NCBI GenBank assembly: GCA_002733545.1
Contig: NVVX01000001.1
Coordinates: 45,099-109,098, forward strand
Length of the DNA stretch: 64,000 nucleotides
Source of the DNA: Alkaliphilus sp.
Lineage (GTDB): Bacteria > Bacillota > Clostridia > Peptostreptococcales > NVVX01
Direction: 5' to 3'
The notes beneath the pieces were generated by a model. It made no database searches. It was not told the DNA's origin and worked only from the letters and a program-made list of their open reading frames with translations. The position numbers were made by a program, and so were the translations under genes. Positions within the stretch are counted from its first letter, which is position 1, and the number at the start of each line of letters is the position of its first letter. Below are positions 16,746 to 52,780 of the stretch, piece by piece.

Positions 16746-17756
16746 GTGAACAAGTCAGAAATTTTTTTAGAAAAAATGATTAAACAAATTAGATGCTATA
16801 AAAAAAACAGATCTAATAGCAGAAGATTTAATGCGTACTACCTGAGTAATAAAGAAGACTTGAGAAATAATATAGCTAGAAAAATTGATTATGTTGTTAT
16901 AAGAGTATTCATTTTACTGTCTATTTTTGTAGTGGTTTTTTTGAGTTTGAAAAATATTGTAAATTCATTTTTTGTTGCCAGTATTTTTCTAAGCATATTT
17001 CAAATTATTACTATAAGAAAACGCAATAAAATGCTATCTTACCAAAAAAAGTATAAGCGAAGACTTGTGGCGAGTCAGAAAGTATATAAAGATATTATAA
17101 ATAAGCCGATGGAAGAGTTAAAAAAATATATAGTAGAAATTTTGCAAAAGAGCGATTTAAGAGATATAGAAGAATTAATGTCAAATAGCAGTAACTTTAC
17201 ATATAATGCGACGTATAAAAATGAAATAATTTCTGTTTCTTTTTTTATCTATAAAGTAGACTATCTTATAGAATTAAAAGAATTGAAAGAATTTCTTTTT
17301 AATTCAAAAAATAATAAGGTAAACAAAGGGATCGTTATCACCACTTCAGATTTTACAAAGGATTGCTACGAATTAACAAATGAAATATCAAAAAACTATA
17401 AGTTGTTACTAATTAATAAGGAAAAATTAATAATGCTAATTGAAAGTGGCGATATGTTTCCGACAGAAGAAGAAATAGACGAAAGCATAGAAGAGATAAT
17501 ACATAAAAAATTTAAAACTCCAGAAAAATACAAAACAGTACTATTTAACGAAACTAAAATAAAAAAATACTTATCTTTGAGCTTTTTTTTATTTATTTTG
17601 TCTTTTTTTACGCCATATATTATCTATTATATGTCAGCAGCGGGTTTTACATTTGGCTTAGCATGTGTTACGTCTATACTTAAAGTAAAAAACATAAGAG
17701 AAAACACAAAAAAATGTTCAGATGAAGATGAAAGACTGCTAGATTTAGACACGTAA
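16746..17756 (+). CDS. Hypothetical membrane protein with a restriction-endonuclease-like (Mrr_cat-like) central region
   Basis: GTG 16746 lies 6 nt after TGGAGG. TM pairs occur near both termini. The central block KGIVITTSDFTKDCYEL resembles the conserved Mrr-type motif. Confidence 0.45.
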   Translation: MNKSEIFLEKMIKQIRCYKKNRSNSRRFNAYYLSNKEDLRNNIARKIDYVVIRVFILLSIFVVVFLSLKNIVNSFFVASIFLSIFQIITIRKRNKMLSYQKKYKRRLVASQKVYKDIINKPMEELKKYIVEILQKSDLRDIEELMSNSSNFTYNATYKNEIISVSFFIYKVDYLIELKELKEFLFNSKNNKVNKGIVITTSDFTKDCYELTNEISKNYKLLLINKEKLIMLIESGDMFPTEEEIDESIEEIIHKKFKTPEKYKTVLFNETKIKKYLSLSFFLFILSFFTPYIIYYMSAAGFTFGLACVTSILKVKNIRENTKKCSDEDERLLDLDT

Positions 17757-26992: not shown

Positions 26993-29155
26993 TTGTCTCA
27001 GCCAAGCATTTCAAGCAAAAGAAGATTGCTTTGGATTTTTATGGTGATAATTATTGTGTTTTTTGCTCTTATTGTTAGACTTGGGTATATACAAATCGTA
27101 ATGGGAGAGAAGTATAAAACATTGGCAAATATACAACAAACTAGGGACATACCGATACCAGCAAAACGAGGGAAAATACTAGATAGAAATGGAAAAGTGC
27201 TAGCAGTAAGTGCTAGCACTAATACTGTTTGGGCAAAGCCTAGAGAGATTAGCAATGTAGAAACAACTGCAAGAAAACTTGCCGCAATTTTGGACATTAA
27301 TGAATTAGAAATTGCTGAGAGAATAGATAATAAGAAACATGGGCTCGTTAGAGTTGCTAAATGGGTAGATGACGAATATGCGCAAATGATTAGAGTAGCA
27401 AATTTACCAGGGGTATGGATTGCAGAAGATAGCAAAAGACATTACCCTTATGGAAGTTTTGCAGCCCATATAATAGGTCATACAACTCACGACGGTAAAG
27501 GGATGGTAGGAATTGAATTAGCATTCGACAGTTATTTAAGAGGAACCCCTGGTAGATGGATTAAAAGCACTGATGGAGCAGGTAGGCAGTTACCATTTGG
27601 CATAGAACAATACTTTCAGCCAGAAGAAGGTGTAAGTATTGTTCTTACAATTGATGAAACTATACAACATTTTTCGGAAAAAGCTGTTCATAGCGCATTT
27701 GAAATTAATTTAGCTAAAAGTGTAACTGCTATTGTAATGGATATTAAATCTGGTGATATTTTAGCAATGGCAATATCTCCTGAATTTGATCCTAACAATC
27801 CTAGAGTGCCTTTAGACGAAATACTATACCAAGAAATGCAAATTATGGAGAATGATGAAAAATTAGACACTTGGTTTGCAATGTGGAGGAATACTGCTGT
27901 TAGTGATATATATGAGCCAGGATCAACTTTTAAACTGATAACAACTGCCATAGCACTAGAACTTAACGAAGTTCAGACAAATAGTCAATTTTATTGTACT
28001 GGTTCAATTCAAGTTGCTGATAGAATAATTAGATGCTGGCGGCACTACAATCCGCATGGAAATCAAACACTGGCAGAGGCTGTTCAGAATTCTTGTAATC
28101 CTGTATTTGTTGATTTAGGGATGAGAATCGGGTTGGATTCTTTTTACGAGTATCTTGATGCTTTTGGTTTTGCAGATAGAACAGGGATTGATTTGCCGGG
28201 CGAGAGTAACTCTTTACTACTGCGAAAATCTTCTGTAGGTCCAGTAGAATTAGCTACAATATCTTTTGGGCAAGGCATAGCAATAACACCACTACAATTA
28301 ATAACTGCAGTTTCTGCAATCGCAAACGATGGAATGATGATGAGACCACGAATAGTAAAAGAACTACTTGACAGTGAAGGAAACAGCATAAAGAATTTTG
28401 AAGAAACATTTGTAAGGCAAGTTGTTTCTAAGAAGACTTCGGAAACGATGTTAGAAATAATGGAGTCGGTAGTTACTGATGGTTCAGGTAGAAATGCATA
28501 TATTCCTGGATATAGAGTAGGTGGAAAAACTGGAACTTCGCAAAAAGTTATAGATGGAGCTTACAAAGAAGGATTTTATGTAGCTTCTTTTATTGGAGTA
28601 GCCCCTTCAAATAATCCTACACTAGCAGTACTAGTTATAGTAGATGAACCAAATGGTGTAAGTAACTTTGGAAGTATAACTGCAGCACCAGTAGTAAGGG
28701 AAATACTAGAAGAAAGTCTAAGATACTTGGATATAAAGCCTAGCTATACTGAAGAAGAGGCTAAGGAACTGTTACTAGAAGACGTAGTTGTTCCAGAGGT
28801 AAGAAAAATGACTTTACAAGAAGCGACGAAAGTCTTAGCTAAAAGCAGTTTAAAATATAACGTGGAAACAATAAATTATAGTGATGAAAATGCAATTATT
28901 GTTGATATGTTCCCTAAGCCAAAGGCTGTGGTGCCAGAAAATTCAATAATTCTATTATACACATCTAATTCTAAAGATGAGTCTTTTGTATCAGTACCTG
29001 ACTTTACAGGTATGACAATAGCAGAGACGAATAATTTACTTAGAAAAATTGGACTTCGCCTAAGAGTGCAAGGTAGTGGGTTTGCAACTAGTCAGTTTCC
29101 ACGAGCTAGCACAAGTGTTACACCAGGAACCATTGTTAGTGTCGAGTTTGAGTAA
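26993..29155 (+). CDS. Class B penicillin-binding protein (PBP2B/SpoVD/FtsI family) with two C-terminal PASTA domains
   Basis: TTG start after the RBS GAGGGGGA. Motifs SxxK (STFK), SxN (SCN) and KTGT (GGKTGTSQK). Confidence 0.92.
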   Translation: MSQPSISSKRRLLWIFMVIIIVFFALIVRLGYIQIVMGEKYKTLANIQQTRDIPIPAKRGKILDRNGKVLAVSASTNTVWAKPREISNVETTARKLAAILDINELEIAERIDNKKHGLVRVAKWVDDEYAQMIRVANLPGVWIAEDSKRHYPYGSFAAHIIGHTTHDGKGMVGIELAFDSYLRGTPGRWIKSTDGAGRQLPFGIEQYFQPEEGVSIVLTIDETIQHFSEKAVHSAFEINLAKSVTAIVMDIKSGDILAMAISPEFDPNNPRVPLDEILYQEMQIMENDEKLDTWFAMWRNTAVSDIYEPGSTFKLITTAIALELNEVQTNSQFYCTGSIQVADRIIRCWRHYNPHGNQTLAEAVQNSCNPVFVDLGMRIGLDSFYEYLDAFGFADRTGIDLPGESNSLLLRKSSVGPVELATISFGQGIAITPLQLITAVSAIANDGMMMRPRIVKELLDSEGNSIKNFEETFVRQVVSKKTSETMLEIMESVVTDGSGRNAYIPGYRVGGKTGTSQKVIDGAYKEGFYVASFIGVAPSNNPTLAVLVIVDEPNGVSNFGSITAAPVVREILEESLRYLDIKPSYTEEEAKELLLEDVVVPEVRKMTLQEATKVLAKSSLKYNVETINYSDENAIIVDMFPKPKAVVPENSIILLYTSNSKDESFVSVPDFTGMTIAETNNLLRKIGLRLRVQGSGFATSQFPRASTSVTPGTIVSVEFE

Positions 29156-29235: not shown

Positions 29236-30774
29236 ATGCAATTAGAAAAATTGTTGAAAAACGTACAAAAAATAAATATAGTTGGAAAAGCCGAAATAAA
29301 CATAGAGAAGATTTGCTATGATTCTAGAAAAATAGAAAAAAACGACATGTTTATATGCATAAAAGGATTCGAGCATGACGGACATTTATTTATTGAAGAG
29401 GCAATAGAAAATGGTGCTACTGTTATTGTTGTTGAAGCAGGGCACAAATGGAAACACAAGGGGACGGTTCTCTTGTGTCTCTCTAAAAGGACACAACAGG
29501 ACACAAGAGAACCGTCCCCTTGTGTTTCTCTTCCTACAATAGTGTATGTAGAAGATACAAGAAAAGCGATGGCAGAGATAGCTAATAATTTTTATGAAAC
29601 TCCTAGTGCTAAGATGAAAATAGTAGGGATAACAGGGACTAATGGAAAGACGTCGGTCTCGTATATGCTTATGGACATACTGAAAAAAAATGGGAACAAA
29701 TCAGGCTTAATAGGAACTATTTCATATACTACAGGCAAAGCTAAACAAACTGCTATGAGGACAACACCAGAATCTATAGACTTGAATAGATTATTAAATG
29801 ACATGGTCGTTAATAATATGGATAGTTGCGTTATGGAAGTATCTTCTCATTCATTAGAGTTGGACAGAGTATGGGGAATTCATTTTAATGTTGGAGTTTT
29901 TACTAATCTCTCATCTGACCACTTAGATTTCCATGGAAATTTAGAAAACTACAAGAATGCAAAGAAAAAACTATTTACTAAAACTGAGCAATTTAATGTG
30001 ATAAATATTGATGACGAAGTAGGAGCAGAAATAGCAAAAGAATTTGACAAATTATCAACACCAGTATTGACGTATGGTATAAATAGTTGTGCTAGTATTT
30101 ATGCCAAGGAGATTAAGCTTACAAACTTGTCAGTGGATTTCGACCTTGTTACACCTACGTTTAATACTAGAGTTAGAATTAATACCCCAGGTTTGTTTAC
30201 AGTATACAATGCGCTTGCTGCTATTTCTAGTGCATACGCCCTAAAGATCTCTGAATCTGCAATTGTTAAAGGCATAACAAGCTTTAGAGGAGTTCCGGGA
30301 AGATTTATGAGAGTGCAAGAATTTAATGAAATTTCTGTAATAGTTGATTACGCACATACTCCCGACGGATTATTGAATGTGCTAAACACAATAAATGCTT
30401 TCAAAAAGAATAGAATTATCACTGTCTTTGGATGTGGTGGAGATAGAGATAAGAAAAAAAGATCTGTCATGGGTAGAATTGCTGGCAAATTGAGCGATTT
30501 TACAATTATAACATCAGATAATCCTAGGTCTGAAAAAGCAGAATTAATAGCATCAATGATAGTAGAAGGAATAAAAGAAACAGATGCTAATTACAAGGTC
30601 ATTCTAAACAGAAAAGACGCAATCAATTATGCAATAAAACATGCAAAAGTAGGAGATACTATTTTAATTGCAGGTAAGGGACATGAAACGACGCAAGTTG
30701 TTGGAGAGAAGACACTCTATTTTAACGATACAGAAACCGCAATTTTAGTGGGTAGAGAAGAGGGTATTATATGA
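29236..30774 (+). CDS. murE: UDP-N-acetylmuramoyl-L-alanyl-D-glutamate--2,6-diaminopimelate ligase MurE, carrying an in-frame repeat insertion
   Basis: GITGTNGKTS; DYAHTPD; and GCGGDRDKKKR followed by DNPR, typical of MurE. The ORF is intact at 512 aa despite the palindromic insertion. Confidence 0.93.
   Translation: MQLEKLLKNVQKINIVGKAEINIEKICYDSRKIEKNDMFICIKGFEHDGHLFIEEAIENGATVIVVEAGHKWKHKGTVLLCLSKRTQQDTREPSPCVSLPTIVYVEDTRKAMAEIANNFYETPSAKMKIVGITGTNGKTSVSYMLMDILKKNGNKSGLIGTISYTTGKAKQTAMRTTPESIDLNRLLNDMVVNNMDSCVMEVSSHSLELDRVWGIHFNVGVFTNLSSDHLDFHGNLENYKNAKKKLFTKTEQFNVINIDDEVGAEIAKEFDKLSTPVLTYGINSCASIYAKEIKLTNLSVDFDLVTPTFNTRVRINTPGLFTVYNALAAISSAYALKISESAIVKGITSFRGVPGRFMRVQEFNEISVIVDYAHTPDGLLNVLNTINAFKKNRIITVFGCGGDRDKKKRSVMGRIAGKLSDFTIITSDNPRSEKAELIASMIVEGIKETDANYKVILNRKDAINYAIKHAKVGDTILIAGKGHETTQVVGEKTLYFNDTETAILVGREEGII
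29442..29528. repeat. REPIN-like palindromic element inside murE: two degenerate 10-mers plus exact 29-bp inverted arms (29451-29479 / 29500-29528) with a 20-nt spacer
   Basis: Left arm gaaacacaaggggacggttctcttgtgtc. The right arm is its exact reverse complement. Each arm is itself a 7-bp-stem mini hairpin: ACACAAG-GGGACGGTTCT-CTTGTGT. Confidence 0.9.
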
Positions 30775-32291
30775 TACAACTAACAATTGAGAGCATTGTA
30801 AATGCGTGTAATGGAATAATAATCCGTAAAGGCGCTAACAACTATATCAAGGGTATTTCAACAGACACACGTAGGATACAACCAGAGATGTTGTTTATTC
30901 CATTAGTAGGTGAAAACTATGATGGACACGACTTTGTTATAGATGCGAGCAAAAAAGGAATTTACGCTACTTTAGTAGAAAAGAACAAGAAACTTACATT
31001 CTTAAATGAATTGGAGAACATCTATGTTATAGAGGTTGAAAACACACTTAAAGCTCTAAAAGACATCAGTAAAAAGTATAAAGAGCGTTTTCAAATACCA
31101 TTCATTGCCGTAACAGGCAGCAATGGCAAGACATCTACTAAGGATATGATTAGCGCAGTTTTGTCTTCAAGATACAAAACTCTTAAGAGTGAAGGCAATT
31201 TTAATAATCAAATAGGTTTACCTCTAACATTGTTTAATTTGGATAAATCTCATGAGTTCGCAGTTTTAGAGATGGGAATGTCGTCATTTGGAGAAATAGA
31301 AGGTCTAGTTGACATAGTTAATCCAAATATAGCTGTGGTTACAAACATTGGCATGGCACATATTGAAAACTTAGGAAGTAAAGAGAACATAATGAAAGCA
31401 AAAATGGAAATATCTAAAAATCTATCAGAAGAAGATATTCTATTATTTAACGGAGATGATGAGTACTTAAAGTCTATACAACACAAGGAACACATGGAAC
31501 ACATGGAACACATGGGGACGGTTCTTCTGTGTTGCTCTGAACTTGATTGCAACAACACAGAAGAACCGTCCCCGTGTGTTCAACAGAACGACACAGAAGA
31601 ACCGTCCCCTTGTGTTCCAAGATATAAAGCTATCAGTTTTGGAATGGATAAAACTAATGACTTTTATCCTGAAAAAATATATGATTTAGGGGATAAAGGA
31701 GTTGCTTTTGATATACTCATTAATAGGGAGACAGAAAAATTCTACATAAAGCAACCCGGATTACATAATGTTTATAATGCCTTAGTTGCAATTTGGGTAG
31801 GGCTGTTTTATGAAATTACACCTAAAGAAATAAACAAATCCCTACATTCATATATACCAACAAAAATGAGAATGGAAATAATAGAAAATAACAATTGTAA
31901 AATTATTAATGATTGCTACAACGCTAGCCCCAATTCTATGAAAGCAGCTTTGTCTGTATTAGCAAACTCAGTTGGAAAAAGAAAAATAGCAATTTTAGCT
32001 AATATGTTAGAAATGGGAAGATTTTCTGAAAAAGGACACCGATTTGTAGGAAAATGTGTAGCTGAGAATAAGATTGATATTTTGATAACTGTCGGCGAAG
32101 AAGCTAAATGGATAGCTGACGAAGCGAAAAACGCTGGACTTGATAAAAGAAATATATTTAAGGTTGGCAAAATTCAAGAAACAAACCTACTCTTACTAGA
32201 AATTATCAAGCAAGGGGATACTATATTAGTCAAAGGTTCAAGAGGTATGCAAATGGAAAATATTGTCCAACTTTTACTAGAGAGGTGCTAA
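30771..32291 (+). CDS. murF: UDP-N-acetylmuramoyl-tripeptide--D-alanyl-D-alanine ligase MurF, carrying an in-frame repeat insertion
   Basis: Start overlaps the murE stop by 4 nt. VTGSNGKTSTKDM, NFNNQIGLPLTL, DCYNASPNSM, VKGSRGMQME. Confidence 0.93.
   Translation: MIQLTIESIVNACNGIIIRKGANNYIKGISTDTRRIQPEMLFIPLVGENYDGHDFVIDASKKGIYATLVEKNKKLTFLNELENIYVIEVENTLKALKDISKKYKERFQIPFIAVTGSNGKTSTKDMISAVLSSRYKTLKSEGNFNNQIGLPLTLFNLDKSHEFAVLEMGMSSFGEIEGLVDIVNPNIAVVTNIGMAHIENLGSKENIMKAKMEISKNLSEEDILLFNGDDEYLKSIQHKEHMEHMEHMGTVLLCCSELDCNNTEEPSPCVQQNDTEEPSPCVPRYKAISFGMDKTNDFYPEKIYDLGDKGVAFDILINRETEKFYIKQPGLHNVYNALVAIWVGLFYEITPKEINKSLHSYIPTKMRMEIIENNNCKIINDCYNASPNSMKAALSVLANSVGKRKIAILANMLEMGRFSEKGHRFVGKCVAENKIDILITVGEEAKWIADEAKNAGLDKRNIFKVGKIQETNLLLLEIIKQGDTILVKGSRGMQMENIVQLLLERC
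31480..31618. repeat. Same repeat family inside murF: four tandem 9-mers (AACACAWGG), one forward core unit (31506-31534) and two reverse core units (31553-31581, 31590-31618)
   Basis: gaacacatggggacggttcttctgtgttg pairs with caacacagaagaaccgtccccgtgtgttc with one G-U. A third unit is gacacagaagaaccgtccccttgtgttcc. Confidence 0.9.
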
Positions 32292-51411: not shown

Positions 51412-51454
51412 TAGGTAAAAAAGAATTGAAAATCGAGAATGGAGAATGAAAAAA

Positions 51455-52780
51455 ATGTCAAAACCAATTGTAGCAGTAGTAGGCAGACCAAACGTTGGAA
51501 AGTCAACTTTTTTTAATAGAATAGCAGGGAAGAGAATATCTATTGTAGAAGATACACCGGGAGTTACAAGAGATAGAATATATACTGAAGTTGAATGGCT
51601 AAATCACAATTTTATTTTAATCGACACAGGTGGAATAGAACCTATGTCAGAAGATAAAATACTAATTCAAATGCGTTTGCAAGCTGAAATAGCAATAGAA
51701 ACAGCAGATGTAATTGTATTTATGGTAGACGGGAGAGACGGATTAACATCTACGGATAGAGAAGTATCTACTATGCTTAGAAAATCTAAAAAACCTGTGA
51801 TACTTGTAGTAAATAAAGTTGATACAAAAGAACCATCAGAATTCTTTTATGAATTTTATGAACTTGCTATGGGAGATCCAATAGAAATATCTTCAGCGCT
51901 TGCACTAAATTTAGGAGATTTACTGGATTCCATCGTAGATTATTTTCCAGAAAAACATGAGGAAGACGATAATGACGAAACAATAAAGGTTGCAATTATT
52001 GGAAAACCAAATGTAGGAAAATCATCTATTTTAAACAAAATACTAGGAGAAAACAGAGTAATCGTAAGTGAAGTTGCAGGAACAACTAGAGACGCAATTG
52101 ACACTCCTTTTACTGATGGAGAAGATGAGTATATACTAATTGATACAGCAGGACTAAGAAGAAGATGCAAAATAAAAGAGAACATAGAAAGATATAGCAC
52201 AATTCGCTCTATAACAGCAATTGAAAGAGCAGATGTATGCTTATTAATCATTGATGCAACTGAAGGAGTAACAGAACAGGACAAAAAAATTGCTGGCTAT
52301 AGTCATGAAAACGGTAAGGCAATTGTAATAGTTGTTAACAAATGGGATTTAATAAAAAAAGATACTAAAACAATGAAAGAGTTTACTAAGAATTTTCGTA
52401 ATGATTTAGCTTACTTAGAATATGCACCACTTATATTTATTTCTGCTTTAACAGGACAAAGATTGAACAAGTTGTTAGAAGTTACCAAATTTGTTGCTAA
52501 TCAAAATTCAATGCGTGTAGCAACTGGGACATTAAATGAAGTTATTGGTGAAGCGACTTTGCTAAATCAACCACCAAGTGATAAAGGAAAGAGATTGAGA
52601 ATTTATTACACAACTCAAGTATCAGTTAAACCGCCTACATTTATATTGTTTATTAACGATAAAAAACTAATGCATTTTTCATATCAAAGATATTTAGAGA
52701 ACAAAATTAGAGAAAACTTTGGGTTTGAAGGTACGCCATTAAGATTTATTTTACGCGAGAAAAAAGGGGATGATAAGTAA
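51455..52780 (+). CDS. der: Ribosome-associated GTPase Der (EngA), double GTPase domain plus KH-like domain
   Basis: GRPNVGKST and [10 protein letters not shown]-loops, DTGG and DTAG, NKVD and NKWD. Confidence 0.95.

What the first reader, a model, noticed from the sequence alone, without database searches (positions are those of the whole stretch)
29442..31618. Both repeat insertions use the same reading frame and encode the same peptide modules in two adjacent Mur ligases
- In both genes the forward unit is read as GGG ACG GTT CTn nTG TGT (G-T-V-L-L-C).
- In both genes the reverse unit is read as GAA CCG TCC CCn TGT GTT (E-P-S-P-C-V).
- In the murE copy one of the three forward frames hits a stop (TAA in the spacer) and one other frame is open. 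The shared frame is therefore not forced, but it is consistent with selection for translatable insertions.
- The two copies are direct-oriented and about 2 kb apart in essential genes of one operon.
- They place very stable hairpins (29-bp stems) inside the polycistronic dcw mRNA.

As inference only, the possible consequences are RNase III-type processing, ribosome pausing, Cys-containing surface loops on both ligases, or recombination hot spots.
Basis: inference. Interest (0 to 1): 0.7.

Follow-up and report, generated by a model that had tools for sequence, protein, structure and literature searches.

The report
Palindromic repeat copies inside murE, murF
Two copies of a small hairpin-forming repeat, which normally sits just after genes in many bacterial phyla, have landed in frame in disordered loops of two essential cell-wall enzymes; their shared reading frame is a survivorship effect, not a special feature.

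Summary
murE (29236-30774) and murF (30771-32291) each carry a stop-free inverted-repeat insert, read in the same phase as G-T-V-L-L-C and E-P-S-P-C-V. The stems are 29 bp.

The inserts are intragenic copies of a dispersed REP/MITE-like palindromic repeat. Its 11-nt core, GGGGACGGTTC, recurs in Bacillota, Actinomycetota, Bacteroidota, Cyanobacteria and phage contigs, with lineage-specific flanking stems. The family usually lies about 16 nt after stop codons; about 12% of copies are inside genes.

AlphaFold models place both inserts in the only low-confidence loops of otherwise confident folds. Only 4 of 121 MurE and 3 of 116 MurF homologues carry an insert. The closest relative has a clean empty murF site.

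The shared frame is not a rule. Seventeen Pfam-verified coding copies of the same subfamily use all three frames (11:4:2), and the Mur frame is a minority. Three orthologous amidases read the element in different frames.

One point is unexpected. The arms are far better conserved than neutral sites of the host genes, which implies selection or homogenisation at the nucleic-acid level.

No transposase, Rfam family or published sequence matches. RNase III processing, ribosome pausing and loop function remain untested.

The parts
29236..30774 (+). murE coding sequence (UDP-MurNAc-tripeptide synthetase, DNPR motif type), host of insert 1
   Evidence: The ORF is 512 aa. It has the Pfam domains Mur_ligase, Mur_ligase_M and Mur_ligase_C. 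It carries all invariant residues of 121 homologues.
29443..29538 (+). Extra coding segment of murE (aa 70-101, HKWKHKGTVLLCLSKRTQQDTREPSPCVSLPT), absent from 117 of 121 homologues
   Evidence: Alignments A1 and A4 with column counts. In the AlphaFold model only residues 71-96 fall below pLDDT 50. They lie between strand 61-67 and strand 101-105.
29451..29479 (+). murE element, forward arm (GAAACACAAG-GGGACGGTTCT-CTTGTGTC); core GGGGACGGTTC at 29460-29470
   Evidence: It is 29/29 complementary to 29500-29528.
29480..29499 (+). murE element spacer (hairpin loop); holds the TAA that closes the GDGS phase
   Evidence: Sequence. The spacer is not conserved between orthologues (6/20 identical).
29500..29528 (+). 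murE element, reverse arm; core complement GAACCGTCCCC at 29509-29519
30771..32291 (+). murF coding sequence (D-Ala-D-Ala adding enzyme), host of insert 2
   Evidence: The ORF is 506 aa. A source names it an Alkaliphilus sp. MAG Mur-ligase family protein (the source's label is the murE-type 2,6-diaminopimelate ligase name; the murF assignment rests on its closest homologues, P0123 and P0126, named D-alanyl-D-alanine ligase).
31476..31622 (+). Extra coding segment of murF (aa 236-284), absent from 113 of 116 homologues
   Evidence: Alignment A5 with column counts. In the AlphaFold model only residues 243-276 fall below pLDDT 50. They lie between helix 234-244 and strand 286-290.
31480..31515 (+). 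9-nt tandem repeat AACACAWGG (about 3-4 units), an in-frame expansion of the outer stem of the forward arm; read as HKEHMEHMEHM
   Evidence: Family D3 and the codon view. The orthologous L005 copy has a single unit.
31506..31534 (+). murF element, forward arm; core at 31514-31524
31553..31581 (+). murF element, first reverse arm; core complement at 31563-31573
   Evidence: It is 97% complementary to 31506-31534.
31584..31619 (+). murF element, second (duplicated) reverse arm; core complement at 31599-31609. The duplication is 36 nt = 12 codons
   Evidence: It is 92% complementary over 36 nt to 31504-31539. It is absent from the L005 orthologue.

Best explanation
**What it is**
- The two inserts are intragenic copies of a dispersed, non-autonomous palindromic repeat of the REP/REPIN or MITE kind.
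- Each arm is a short stem (here AACACA-N / N-TGTGTT) around an 11-nt core, GGGGACGGTTC. Two arms in inverted orientation, about 60 nt in all, make a long hairpin.
- The family's normal place is the first few tens of bases after a stop codon.

**How the copies came to be in genes**
- A minority of copies land inside genes. They persist only where they add a stop-free segment of a multiple of 3 nt to a loop or inter-domain linker.
- In this Alkaliphilus-like lineage one copy entered a loop of domain 1 of MurE. Another entered a loop of the central domain of MurF. In one relative a third entered murG.
- The MurE copy predates the split of four lineages. The MurF copy is shared by three lineages and missing from the closest relative.

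**What the shared frame means**
The identical peptide modules follow from identical arm sequence, identical core-to-core spacing, and the same one of two open phases. They are passengers, not a selected protein feature.

**Inference, not shown**
- The element is mobilised in trans by an enzyme that recognises the core, presented on a folded single strand. A HUH-type (RAYT-like) transposase is the best analogy.
- That system, hairpin-templated correction, or selection on the hairpin keeps the two arms matched.
For: **A real, dispersed family**
- The pattern core-N20-50-core' gave at least 119 genome stretches from many phyla. It also gave 9 viral contigs.
- The AACACA subfamily gave at least 120 metagenome stretches.

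**Architecture**
- Within-arm stems of at least 5 bp occur in 162 of 445 arms, against 23 in the control, with 113 distinct stem sequences.
- Arm-to-arm pairs covary. The first inner pair is CG 50, GC 33, TA 19, AT 6, with 108 of 125 Watson-Crick.

**Usual position**
- Among 146 elements in loci of GC 0.50 or less, gene 3' ends face the element 129 times and 5' ends 69 times.
- The median distance to the stop codon is 16 nt, and 18 copies are intragenic (examples).

**Intragenic copies sit at linkers of real genes**
Examples are DnaE, PolA, AddB, RecD2, GH92, a histidine kinase, a radical-SAM enzyme, amidases and MntP, with Pfam domains on both sides of the element.

**Frames vary**
- The 17 verified coding copies split 11:4:2 across the three phases.
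- Orthologous amidases read the element in different phases.

**Local history**
- The insert is present in 4 of 121 MurE and 3 of 116 MurF homologues.
- L007 has an empty murF site and a decayed murE copy.
- L005 has a further copy in murG, in the same phase.
- L006 has a nested copy in murE.

**Tolerated loops**
The inserts are the only segments below pLDDT 50 in the models.
Against: - No mobilising gene was found beside any copy or in the window.
- No target-site duplication could be defined.
- Copy number in the source genome is unknown. The window holds only these two copies and none between genes, which is unusual for an active REP-like family.
- The arms are much better conserved than 4-fold degenerate sites of the host genes:
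  - murE, window against L006: 54/58 identical against 0.44 neutral, P = 2.5e-15.
  - murE, window against L005: 49/58 against 0.60.
  - murF, window against L005: 52/58 against 0.57.
- One compensatory change keeps the murE stem perfect in the window lineage.
- A pure 'neutral passenger' reading does not predict this conservation. It needs selection on the hairpin, concerted evolution, or re-insertion.
Confidence: 0.8

Rival explanations
1. The hairpins are selected cis-acting RNA or DNA structures of the dcw operon. They would act as RNase III or other processing sites, translation pause sites, or attenuators that set the ratio of murE, murF and downstream products. Under this reading the coding capacity is only a constraint.
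For: - The stems are perfect or near perfect, 29 bp long, with z about -10.
- The arms are far better conserved than neutral sites, while the murE spacer is not.
- A compensatory change restores pairing in the window lineage.
- Every copy seen in this clade lies in a dcw gene: murE, murF, and murG in L005.
Against: - The closest relative (91% identity) has no murF copy. Its murE copy is broken by a 12-nt deletion and core mutations, yet it keeps the same operon.
- The same element sits in unrelated genes and mostly between genes in other taxa.
- The loci of relatives were fetched through MurE, so 'only in dcw genes' is partly a sampling effect.
- No expression data are available.
Confidence: 0.1
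2. The inserted peptides are adaptive protein modules. They would be Cys-containing surface loops giving both ligases a shared property such as metal binding, redox sensing or a common partner.
For: - The same peptide motifs GTVLLC and EPSPCV occur in MurE and MurF, and in MurG of L005.
- The inserts hold 2 and 5 cysteines.
Against: - Both inserts are predicted to be disordered (pLDDT below 50).
- The insert is lost or decayed in the closest relative.
- The peptide differs between orthologues while the DNA arms are kept. R/K changes track stem pairing.
- Orthologous amidases translate the same element in different phases.
- The GTVLLC phase is a minority among verified coding copies.
Confidence: 0.03
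3. The copies at the same site in different lineages are not one inherited insertion. They are repeated independent insertions into a preferred target (a hot spot), and the empty murF site of L007 is ancestral.
For: - The arms are nearly identical between lineages whose neutral sites are close to saturated.
- Orthologous amidase sites read the element in different phases, with different junctions.
- Nested 'forward forward reverse reverse' arrangements suggest insertion into existing hairpins.
Against: - The murF spacers of the window and L005 are alike (13/20 ungapped, same orientation), as expected for a single event.
- The junctions with the host codons coincide in MurE in all four lineages.
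- Given the tree implied by MurE and MurF identities, this needs at least two hits at one codon position in the same phase.
Confidence: 0.15
4. The inserts are assembly or sequencing artefacts, that is, chimeric joins at a repeat.
For: Hairpin repeats often break or confuse assemblies. Many metagenome hits lie at contig ends.
Against: - Identical murE-murF sequence with both elements occurs in four contigs from different projects and assemblers.
- The reading frames are intact, and orthologous copies exist in three other lineages.
Confidence: 0.01

Closest known systems
Rickettsia palindromic elements (RPE; Ogata et al. 2000 and 2002, as summarised in PMC10969869 and PMC3733652)
   Same: - Palindromic repeats inserted in frame into unrelated, often essential genes.
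- They add a short peptide that is compatible with the fold.
- Copies are shared or lost between related genomes.
   Different: - There is no sequence relation.
- RPE-1 is about 100-150 bp and confined to Rickettsia. This element is about 60 nt.
- This element has an 11-nt core shared across phyla and is mainly intergenic.
- For RPEs a conserved peptide was emphasised. Here the reading phase varies.
REP / REPIN elements mobilised by RAYT tyrosine (HUH) transposases (Bertels and Rainey 2011, PMC3116915; PMC3337134)
   Same: - The unit is itself a short imperfect palindrome.
- Units occur as inverted doublets that fold into a long hairpin.
- The position is just downstream of genes, with no transposase beside the copies.
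- Singlets and clusters of units occur.
   Different: - There is no GTAG/GTGG tag.
- The conserved part lies in the middle of the unit, between the stem halves, not at one end.
- The family is found in Bacillota, Actinomycetota, Bacteroidota and others, rather than mainly in Proteobacteria.
- No RAYT has been linked to it.
- Copy density in the window is low.
CGTC-tagged REPs, including intragenic REPs (Di Nocera et al. 2013, PMC3733652)
   Same: - The core complement GAAC-CGTC-CCC contains CGTC.
- That paper reports REPs without a dedicated transposase.
- It reports REP dimers inside genes that encode 20-30 aa, notably in replication and repair genes. Here DnaE, PolA, AddB and RecD2 carry copies.
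   Different: - CGTC REPs have an unpaired end tag, then a stem of 8-9 bp, a loop of 4-5 nt and a CCA tail.
- Here CGTC lies inside the arm, between two stem halves, and no CCA tail is present.
- CGTC REPs are mainly alphaproteobacterial.
Correia elements, ERIC, BOX and other bacterial MITEs (review PMC10969869)
   Same: - Small non-autonomous inverted-repeat elements that are co-transcribed with genes and can form hairpins in mRNA.
- From my own knowledge, Correia hairpins are cut by RNase III.
   Different: - Those families have defined terminal inverted repeats and target duplications (TA for Correia).
- They are restricted to a genus or family.
- No target duplication could be defined here.

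Membership tests
REPIN / REP-RAYT system | The unit is a short (20-40 nt) imperfect palindrome | tested here: met
   Arms of about 25-29 nt have within-arm stems of at least 5 bp in 162 of 445 arms, against 23 expected. The window arm is ACACAAG-GGGACGGTTCT-CTTGTGT.
REPIN / REP-RAYT system | Two units in inverted orientation, separated by a short spacer, form a long hairpin | tested here: met
   Arm-to-arm covariation is seen in 125 distinct elements.
REPIN / REP-RAYT system | A conserved GTAG (GTGG) tetranucleotide at the 5' end of the unit | tested here: not met
   No GTAG is present at the arm ends. The conserved element is the central GGGGACGGTTC.
REPIN / REP-RAYT system | A RAYT gene in the same genome, typically flanked by the REPs | tested here: inconclusive
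   - No transposase cluster was found among 2523 ORFs near copies.
- ORFs flanked by elements are ordinary genes.
- There is none in the 64 kb window.
- Whole genomes could not be searched.
REPIN / REP-RAYT system | Tens to hundreds of copies per genome, mainly extragenic | not testable with these tools
   - Only 64 kb of the source genome is held, with 2 elements, both intragenic.
- Other genomes show 3-5 copies per 6-13 kb.
CGTC-tagged REPs (Di Nocera 2013) | An unpaired CGTC at one end, then a stem of 8-9 bp, a loop of 4-5 nt, and a CCA tail | tested here: not met
   CGTC lies inside GAACCGTCCCC, between the two halves of the arm stem. No CCA tail is present (compared).
Rickettsia palindromic elements | Sequence membership in one of the RPE families; a Rickettsia host | tested here: not met
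   The host is an Alkaliphilus-like Bacillota MAG. The element is about 60 nt with a different sequence. RPE sequences themselves were not aligned here.
Rickettsia palindromic elements | In-frame insertion into protein-coding genes at positions compatible with the fold | tested here: met
   The same holds for 17 other host genes.
MITE (DDE-transposon derived) | Terminal inverted repeats plus a direct target-site duplication | tested here: inconclusive
   - Inverted repeats are present.
- Comparing the empty L007 murF site with the filled sites shows no clear duplication, but the flanks have diverged.
- The outermost bases vary between lineages while the inner core is fixed. That is not the usual pattern for terminal inverted repeats.
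Any Rfam RNA family | A score at or above the family's gathering threshold | tested here: not met
   - There were 0 hits in the window and in 17 loci holding multiple further copies.
- Only sub-threshold generic miRNA-hairpin matches appeared in the permissive search.

The most novel reading that the evidence does not exclude
- The Mur inserts belong to a so far undescribed, cross-phylum family of REP-like elements.
- The family is defined by an invariant 11-nt core (GGGGACGGTTC), presented between lineage-specific complementary stems.
- A dedicated but unidentified protein (for example a HUH-type enzyme) or process recognises this core.
- That recognition keeps the arms homogenised over long evolutionary times, even inside essential genes such as murE, murF, dnaE and polA. 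It also gives scar-free excision, as at the empty murF site of the closest relative.
Probability: 0.3. Interest if true: 0.7.

Novelty: new member of a known kind. Interest (0 to 1): 0.42.

Why it matters
**For the finding as stated: little.**
- In-frame palindromic repeats in essential genes are a known phenomenon (RPEs, intragenic REPs).
- The shared frame has no special meaning.

**For the element family: more.**
- The survey exposed a repeat family with a core conserved across phyla.
- It has a strong preference for the first bases after stop codons.
- It enters linkers of replication, repair and cell-wall genes again and again.
- Its arms stay matched far longer than neutral DNA should.

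Identifying what recognises the core would add a mobile-DNA or genome-structuring system outside the Proteobacteria-centred REP/RAYT picture.

There is also a practical point. Such inserts inflate and confuse protein alignments, and they break metagenome assemblies.

Tried and rejected
- **Rfam.** The gathering search of the window and of 17 other loci gave nothing. The permissive search gave only generic miRNA-hairpin matches far below threshold.
- **Literature by sequence.** Searches with 10- and 11-mers of the core, as DNA and as RNA, returned only unrelated primers.
- **BLAST of the murE element.** There was no match against 72,556 plasmids or 50,697 phage genomes.
- **Search for a mobilising gene.**
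  - All-against-all clustering of 2523 ORFs around 119 genomic loci gave only large housekeeping families: ABC transporters, histidine kinases, GntR, LacI.
  - ORFs bracketed by elements are GNAT, MarR, ADH, a nucleotidyltransferase and phage tail proteins.
  - The whole window is housekeeping: opp transporters, the dcw cluster, and sporulation genes.
- **Resemblances rejected by inspection of the sequence.**
  - tRNA T-loop: GGTTC is followed by a pyrimidine, not by R-A.
  - Group II intron domain V: only ACGGTTC is shared, and the halves are in the wrong order.
  - CsrA GGA loop and the SinR GTTCTYT site: the host range does not fit.
  - IS6 and Tn3 terminal repeats: the conserved part is not terminal.
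  - Integron attC: there is no GTTRRRY.
- **Intrinsic terminator.** The scan flags only a single-arm hairpin on the minus strand, with no canonical T-run.
- **One look-up failed.** No record was found for the ORF at 51446-52780.
Full report
**1.
- The window carries a dcw cluster on the + strand: mraZ, rsmH, ftsL-like, a PBP, murE (29236-30774), murF (30771-32291), mraY, murD, ftsW, murA.
- murE contains a perfect inverted repeat. The arms are 29451-29479 and 29500-29528 (29/29), with a 20-nt spacer.
- murF contains a forward arm (31506-31534) and two reverse arms (31553-31581, 97%; 31584-31619, 92% over 36 nt). A 9-nt tandem repeat precedes them (31480-31515).
- The 12-mer GGGGACGGTTCT occurs five times in 64 kb, only here, against 0.04 expected. 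No further copy appears with up to 2 mismatches in the 11-nt core.
- Both inserts are read in the same phase, as G-T-V-L-L-C and E-P-S-P-C-V.
- The RNA hairpins are very stable: -58 and -71 kcal/mol, z about -10.
- Identical sequence in four independently assembled contigs excludes an artefact.

**2. The segments are insertions in otherwise normal Mur ligases.**
- Only the window and its three closest relatives have extra residues at the murE position. That is 4 of 121 MurE homologues: P0001/L007 at 91%, P0002/L005 (an Alkaliphilus sp. MAG) at 75%, and P0003/L006 at 69%.
- Only 3 of 116 MurF homologues have extra residues at the murF position.
- All invariant catalytic residues are kept.
- The AlphaFold models are confident: mean pLDDT 91.1 and 90.6.
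- In MurE the only segment below pLDDT 50 is 71-96, between strands 61-67 and 101-105.
- In MurF the only such segment is 243-276, between helix 234-244 and strand 286-290. These are the inserts.

**3. Local history.**
- The murE insert sits at the same codon position in all four lineages.
- In L007 the murE copy is decaying. The core is mutated to GGGGAATGTTC and the reverse arm has lost 12 nt.
- In L006 a second element is nested inside the first and is read in another phase, GDGSFV...KNRPLV.
- The murF insert is present in the window, L005 and L006. The window and L005 spacers are alike (13/20).
- L007, the closest relative, has a clean empty murF site...AAG CTA CAA AAA TTA AGA TAT....
- L005 has a further copy inside murG, in the GTV phase.
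- The window's murF copy has grown by in-frame duplications: 9-nt units and a 36-nt extra arm.

**4. The element belongs to a large family.**
- Scanning for GGGGACGGTTC-N20-50-GAACCGTCCCC gave 9 viral contigs.
- The genomes come from Bacillota, Actinomycetota, Bacteroidota, Cyanobacteria, Omnitrophota, Elusimicrobiota and Atribacterota.
- About one match would be expected by chance in 596 Gb (my arithmetic).
- The core is constant, but the 5-8 nt on either side differ between lineages. Examples are AACACA, GAGTCA, GGGACA and GAAGCA.
- Within one arm the two flanks are complementary to each other. Stems of at least 5 bp occur in 162 of 445 arms against 23 in a cross-locus control, with 113 distinct stems.
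- In the AACACA subfamily (at least 120 metagenome stretches) the unconstrained positions covary between arms. One pair is CG 50, GC 33, TA 19, AT 6.
- Concentric 'forward forward reverse reverse' arrangements are frequent.

**5. Usual position of the family.**
- In loci with GC of 0.50 or less, 146 elements were classified and 18 are intragenic.
- For the rest, a neighbouring gene's 3' end faces the element 129 times and a 5' end 69 times.
- The median distance to the stop codon is 16 nt, against 88 nt to start codons (examples).
- This is the position typical of REPs (PMC3733652).
- Neighbouring genes are ordinary. No transposase family recurs, and none lies in the window.

**6. The reading-frame claim.**
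- All three phases of both arms are free of stops, so the arms do not force a frame.
- In the Mur copies the GDGS phase is closed by stops in the spacers: TAA in murE, TGA in murF, TGA in the L005 murG copy (sequence). Two phases remain open, so a shared phase has a chance of about one half per extra copy.
- Among metagenomic AACACA-type copies, 21 of 124 are spanned by long ORFs.
- Seventeen of these were verified by Pfam domains on both sides or across the element:
  - DnaE, AddB, PolA, GH92, RecD2, a PlsX fusion, a B12/radical-SAM enzyme;
  - a CoA-activase, an IspD-RNase H fusion, a histidine kinase, TsaB/D;
  - three amidases, a molybdopterin enzyme, a GATase and MntP.
- Their phases are GDGS 11, GTVLLC 4 and GRF 2. 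My chi-square against equal use is 7.9 with 2 df, P about 0.02, and the copies are not all independent.
- All phases are therefore used. The bias favours the linker-like GDGS phase, not the phase used in MurE and MurF.
- Three orthologous amidases (55% identity) carry the element in the same loop in different phases.
The same-genome census remains undone.

**7. What a 'neutral passenger' reading does not explain.**
- Between the window and L005 or L006, 4-fold degenerate sites of murE and murF are 0.44-0.60 identical.
- The 58 arm positions are much more alike:
  - murE, window against L005: 49/58, P = 5e-5.
  - murE, window against L006: 54/58, P = 2.5e-15.
  - murF, window against L005: 52/58, P = 6e-8.
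- The murE spacer is at chance level (6/20).
- The arms keep G+C-rich codons. GC3 is 0.44-0.47 inside the inserts and 0.26-0.27 outside.
- At one position the window has C in the forward arm and G in the reverse arm. L005 and L006 have T and A. L007 has the mixed state. This is a compensatory change that alters an amino acid (K to R) to keep a base pair.
- The palindrome, not the peptide, is therefore what is maintained. The cause could be selection on the hairpin, arm-to-arm or copy-to-copy conversion, or repeated re-insertion. I cannot tell which.

**8. Comparison with what is known.**
- In-frame palindromic inserts are known from Rickettsia (RPEs) and from intragenic REPs. The latter were noted especially in replication and repair genes and encode 20-30 aa per dimer (PMC10969869; PMC3733652).
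- The present family works like a REP or REPIN: a palindromic unit, inverted doublets, a position after genes, and no adjacent transposase.
- It fails two defining tests. It has no GTAG tag, and it lacks the CGTC-REP layout of an end tag, an 8-9 bp stem, a 4-5 nt loop and a CCA tail.
- It is absent from Rfam 15.
- Its sequence is absent from the searchable literature.
- It was not found in the plasmid and phage collections.

**9. Verdict.**
- The finding is a correct observation of an ordinary kind of event. A mobile palindromic repeat is trapped in frame in tolerant loops of two adjacent essential genes.
- The 'same frame, same peptide' aspect is a by-product of identical arms and spacing plus a filter against stops.
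- The proposed consequences (RNase III cleavage, pausing, Cys loops, recombination) are untested. The loss and decay seen in the nearest relative argue against an essential role.
- The wider family and the unexplained conservation of its arms are the parts worth following up.

Noticed in passing
L017-L135 (genome scan) and L008-L016 (viral scan); window 29460-29470 etc.: The 11-nt core GGGGACGGTTC is invariant in palindromic elements from at least seven phyla and from phage contigs. The flanking stems differ (113 variants) but stay self-complementary. No Rfam family or paper matches the sequence.
   Followed up: partly
L141:210-1241, L191:563-1267, L210:2846-4069: Three orthologous amidase (GatA-like) genes, 55% identical, carry the same element in the same loop. 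It is translated in different phases (GRF or GDGS; RTVPLC, EPSPCV or NRPLV) and has different junctions.
   Followed up: partly
L242, L253, L232, L171 (metagenome loci): Four of the first ten verified intragenic copies lie in replication or repair genes (DnaE, AddB, PolA, RecD2), always between Pfam domains. This echoes the bias reported for intragenic REPs in PMC3733652.
   Followed up: partly
L007:6807-6875 against window 31449-31643: The closest relative (MurF 91% identical) has a clean, in-frame empty site where the window, L005 and L006 carry the murF element. This fits scar-free excision, or else independent insertions.
   Followed up: partly
L006:2380-2505 (murE) and L138, L171, L186, L190, L225, L232: Concentric 'forward forward reverse reverse' arrangements occur, as if a new element had inserted into the centre (loop) of an older one.
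   Followed up: partly
L005:16515-17660 (element at 17231-17290): The Alkaliphilus sp. MAG relative has murG between ftsW and murA, and murG carries a third copy of the element in the GTV phase. The window has no murG at that place (ftsW is followed directly by murA).
   Followed up: no
window 29501-29525 (minus strand): A single arm can also fold on its own into an 11-bp hairpin with two G-T pairs and a CGG triloop (ACACAAGGGGA CGG TTCTCTTGTGT). Only the strand carrying GGGGACGGTTC can do this, so the two strands are not equivalent as RNA or single-stranded DNA.
   Followed up: no
window 27196-27220: A perfect 10-bp palindrome with a 5-nt loop (AGTGCTAGCA GTAAG TGCTAGCACT) lies inside the PBP (ftsI-like) gene. 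It is unrelated to the element family.
   Followed up: no
L105:1731-3338 (minus strand): An aminotransferase-like ORF in a Bacillota MAG contains two copies of another repeat. It is translated as ...AGPAEVSGAGPAGYGTLASEDDARAQLRRHPQPQLRHDPQ..., which suggests a different intragenic repeat family.
   Followed up: no
L174:1127-2479 and L193:1379-4036: In two metagenome loci the element lies exactly between two domains that are usually separate genes (IspD + RNase H; DUF5940 + PlsX). The stop-free element may have fused neighbouring genes.
   Followed up: no
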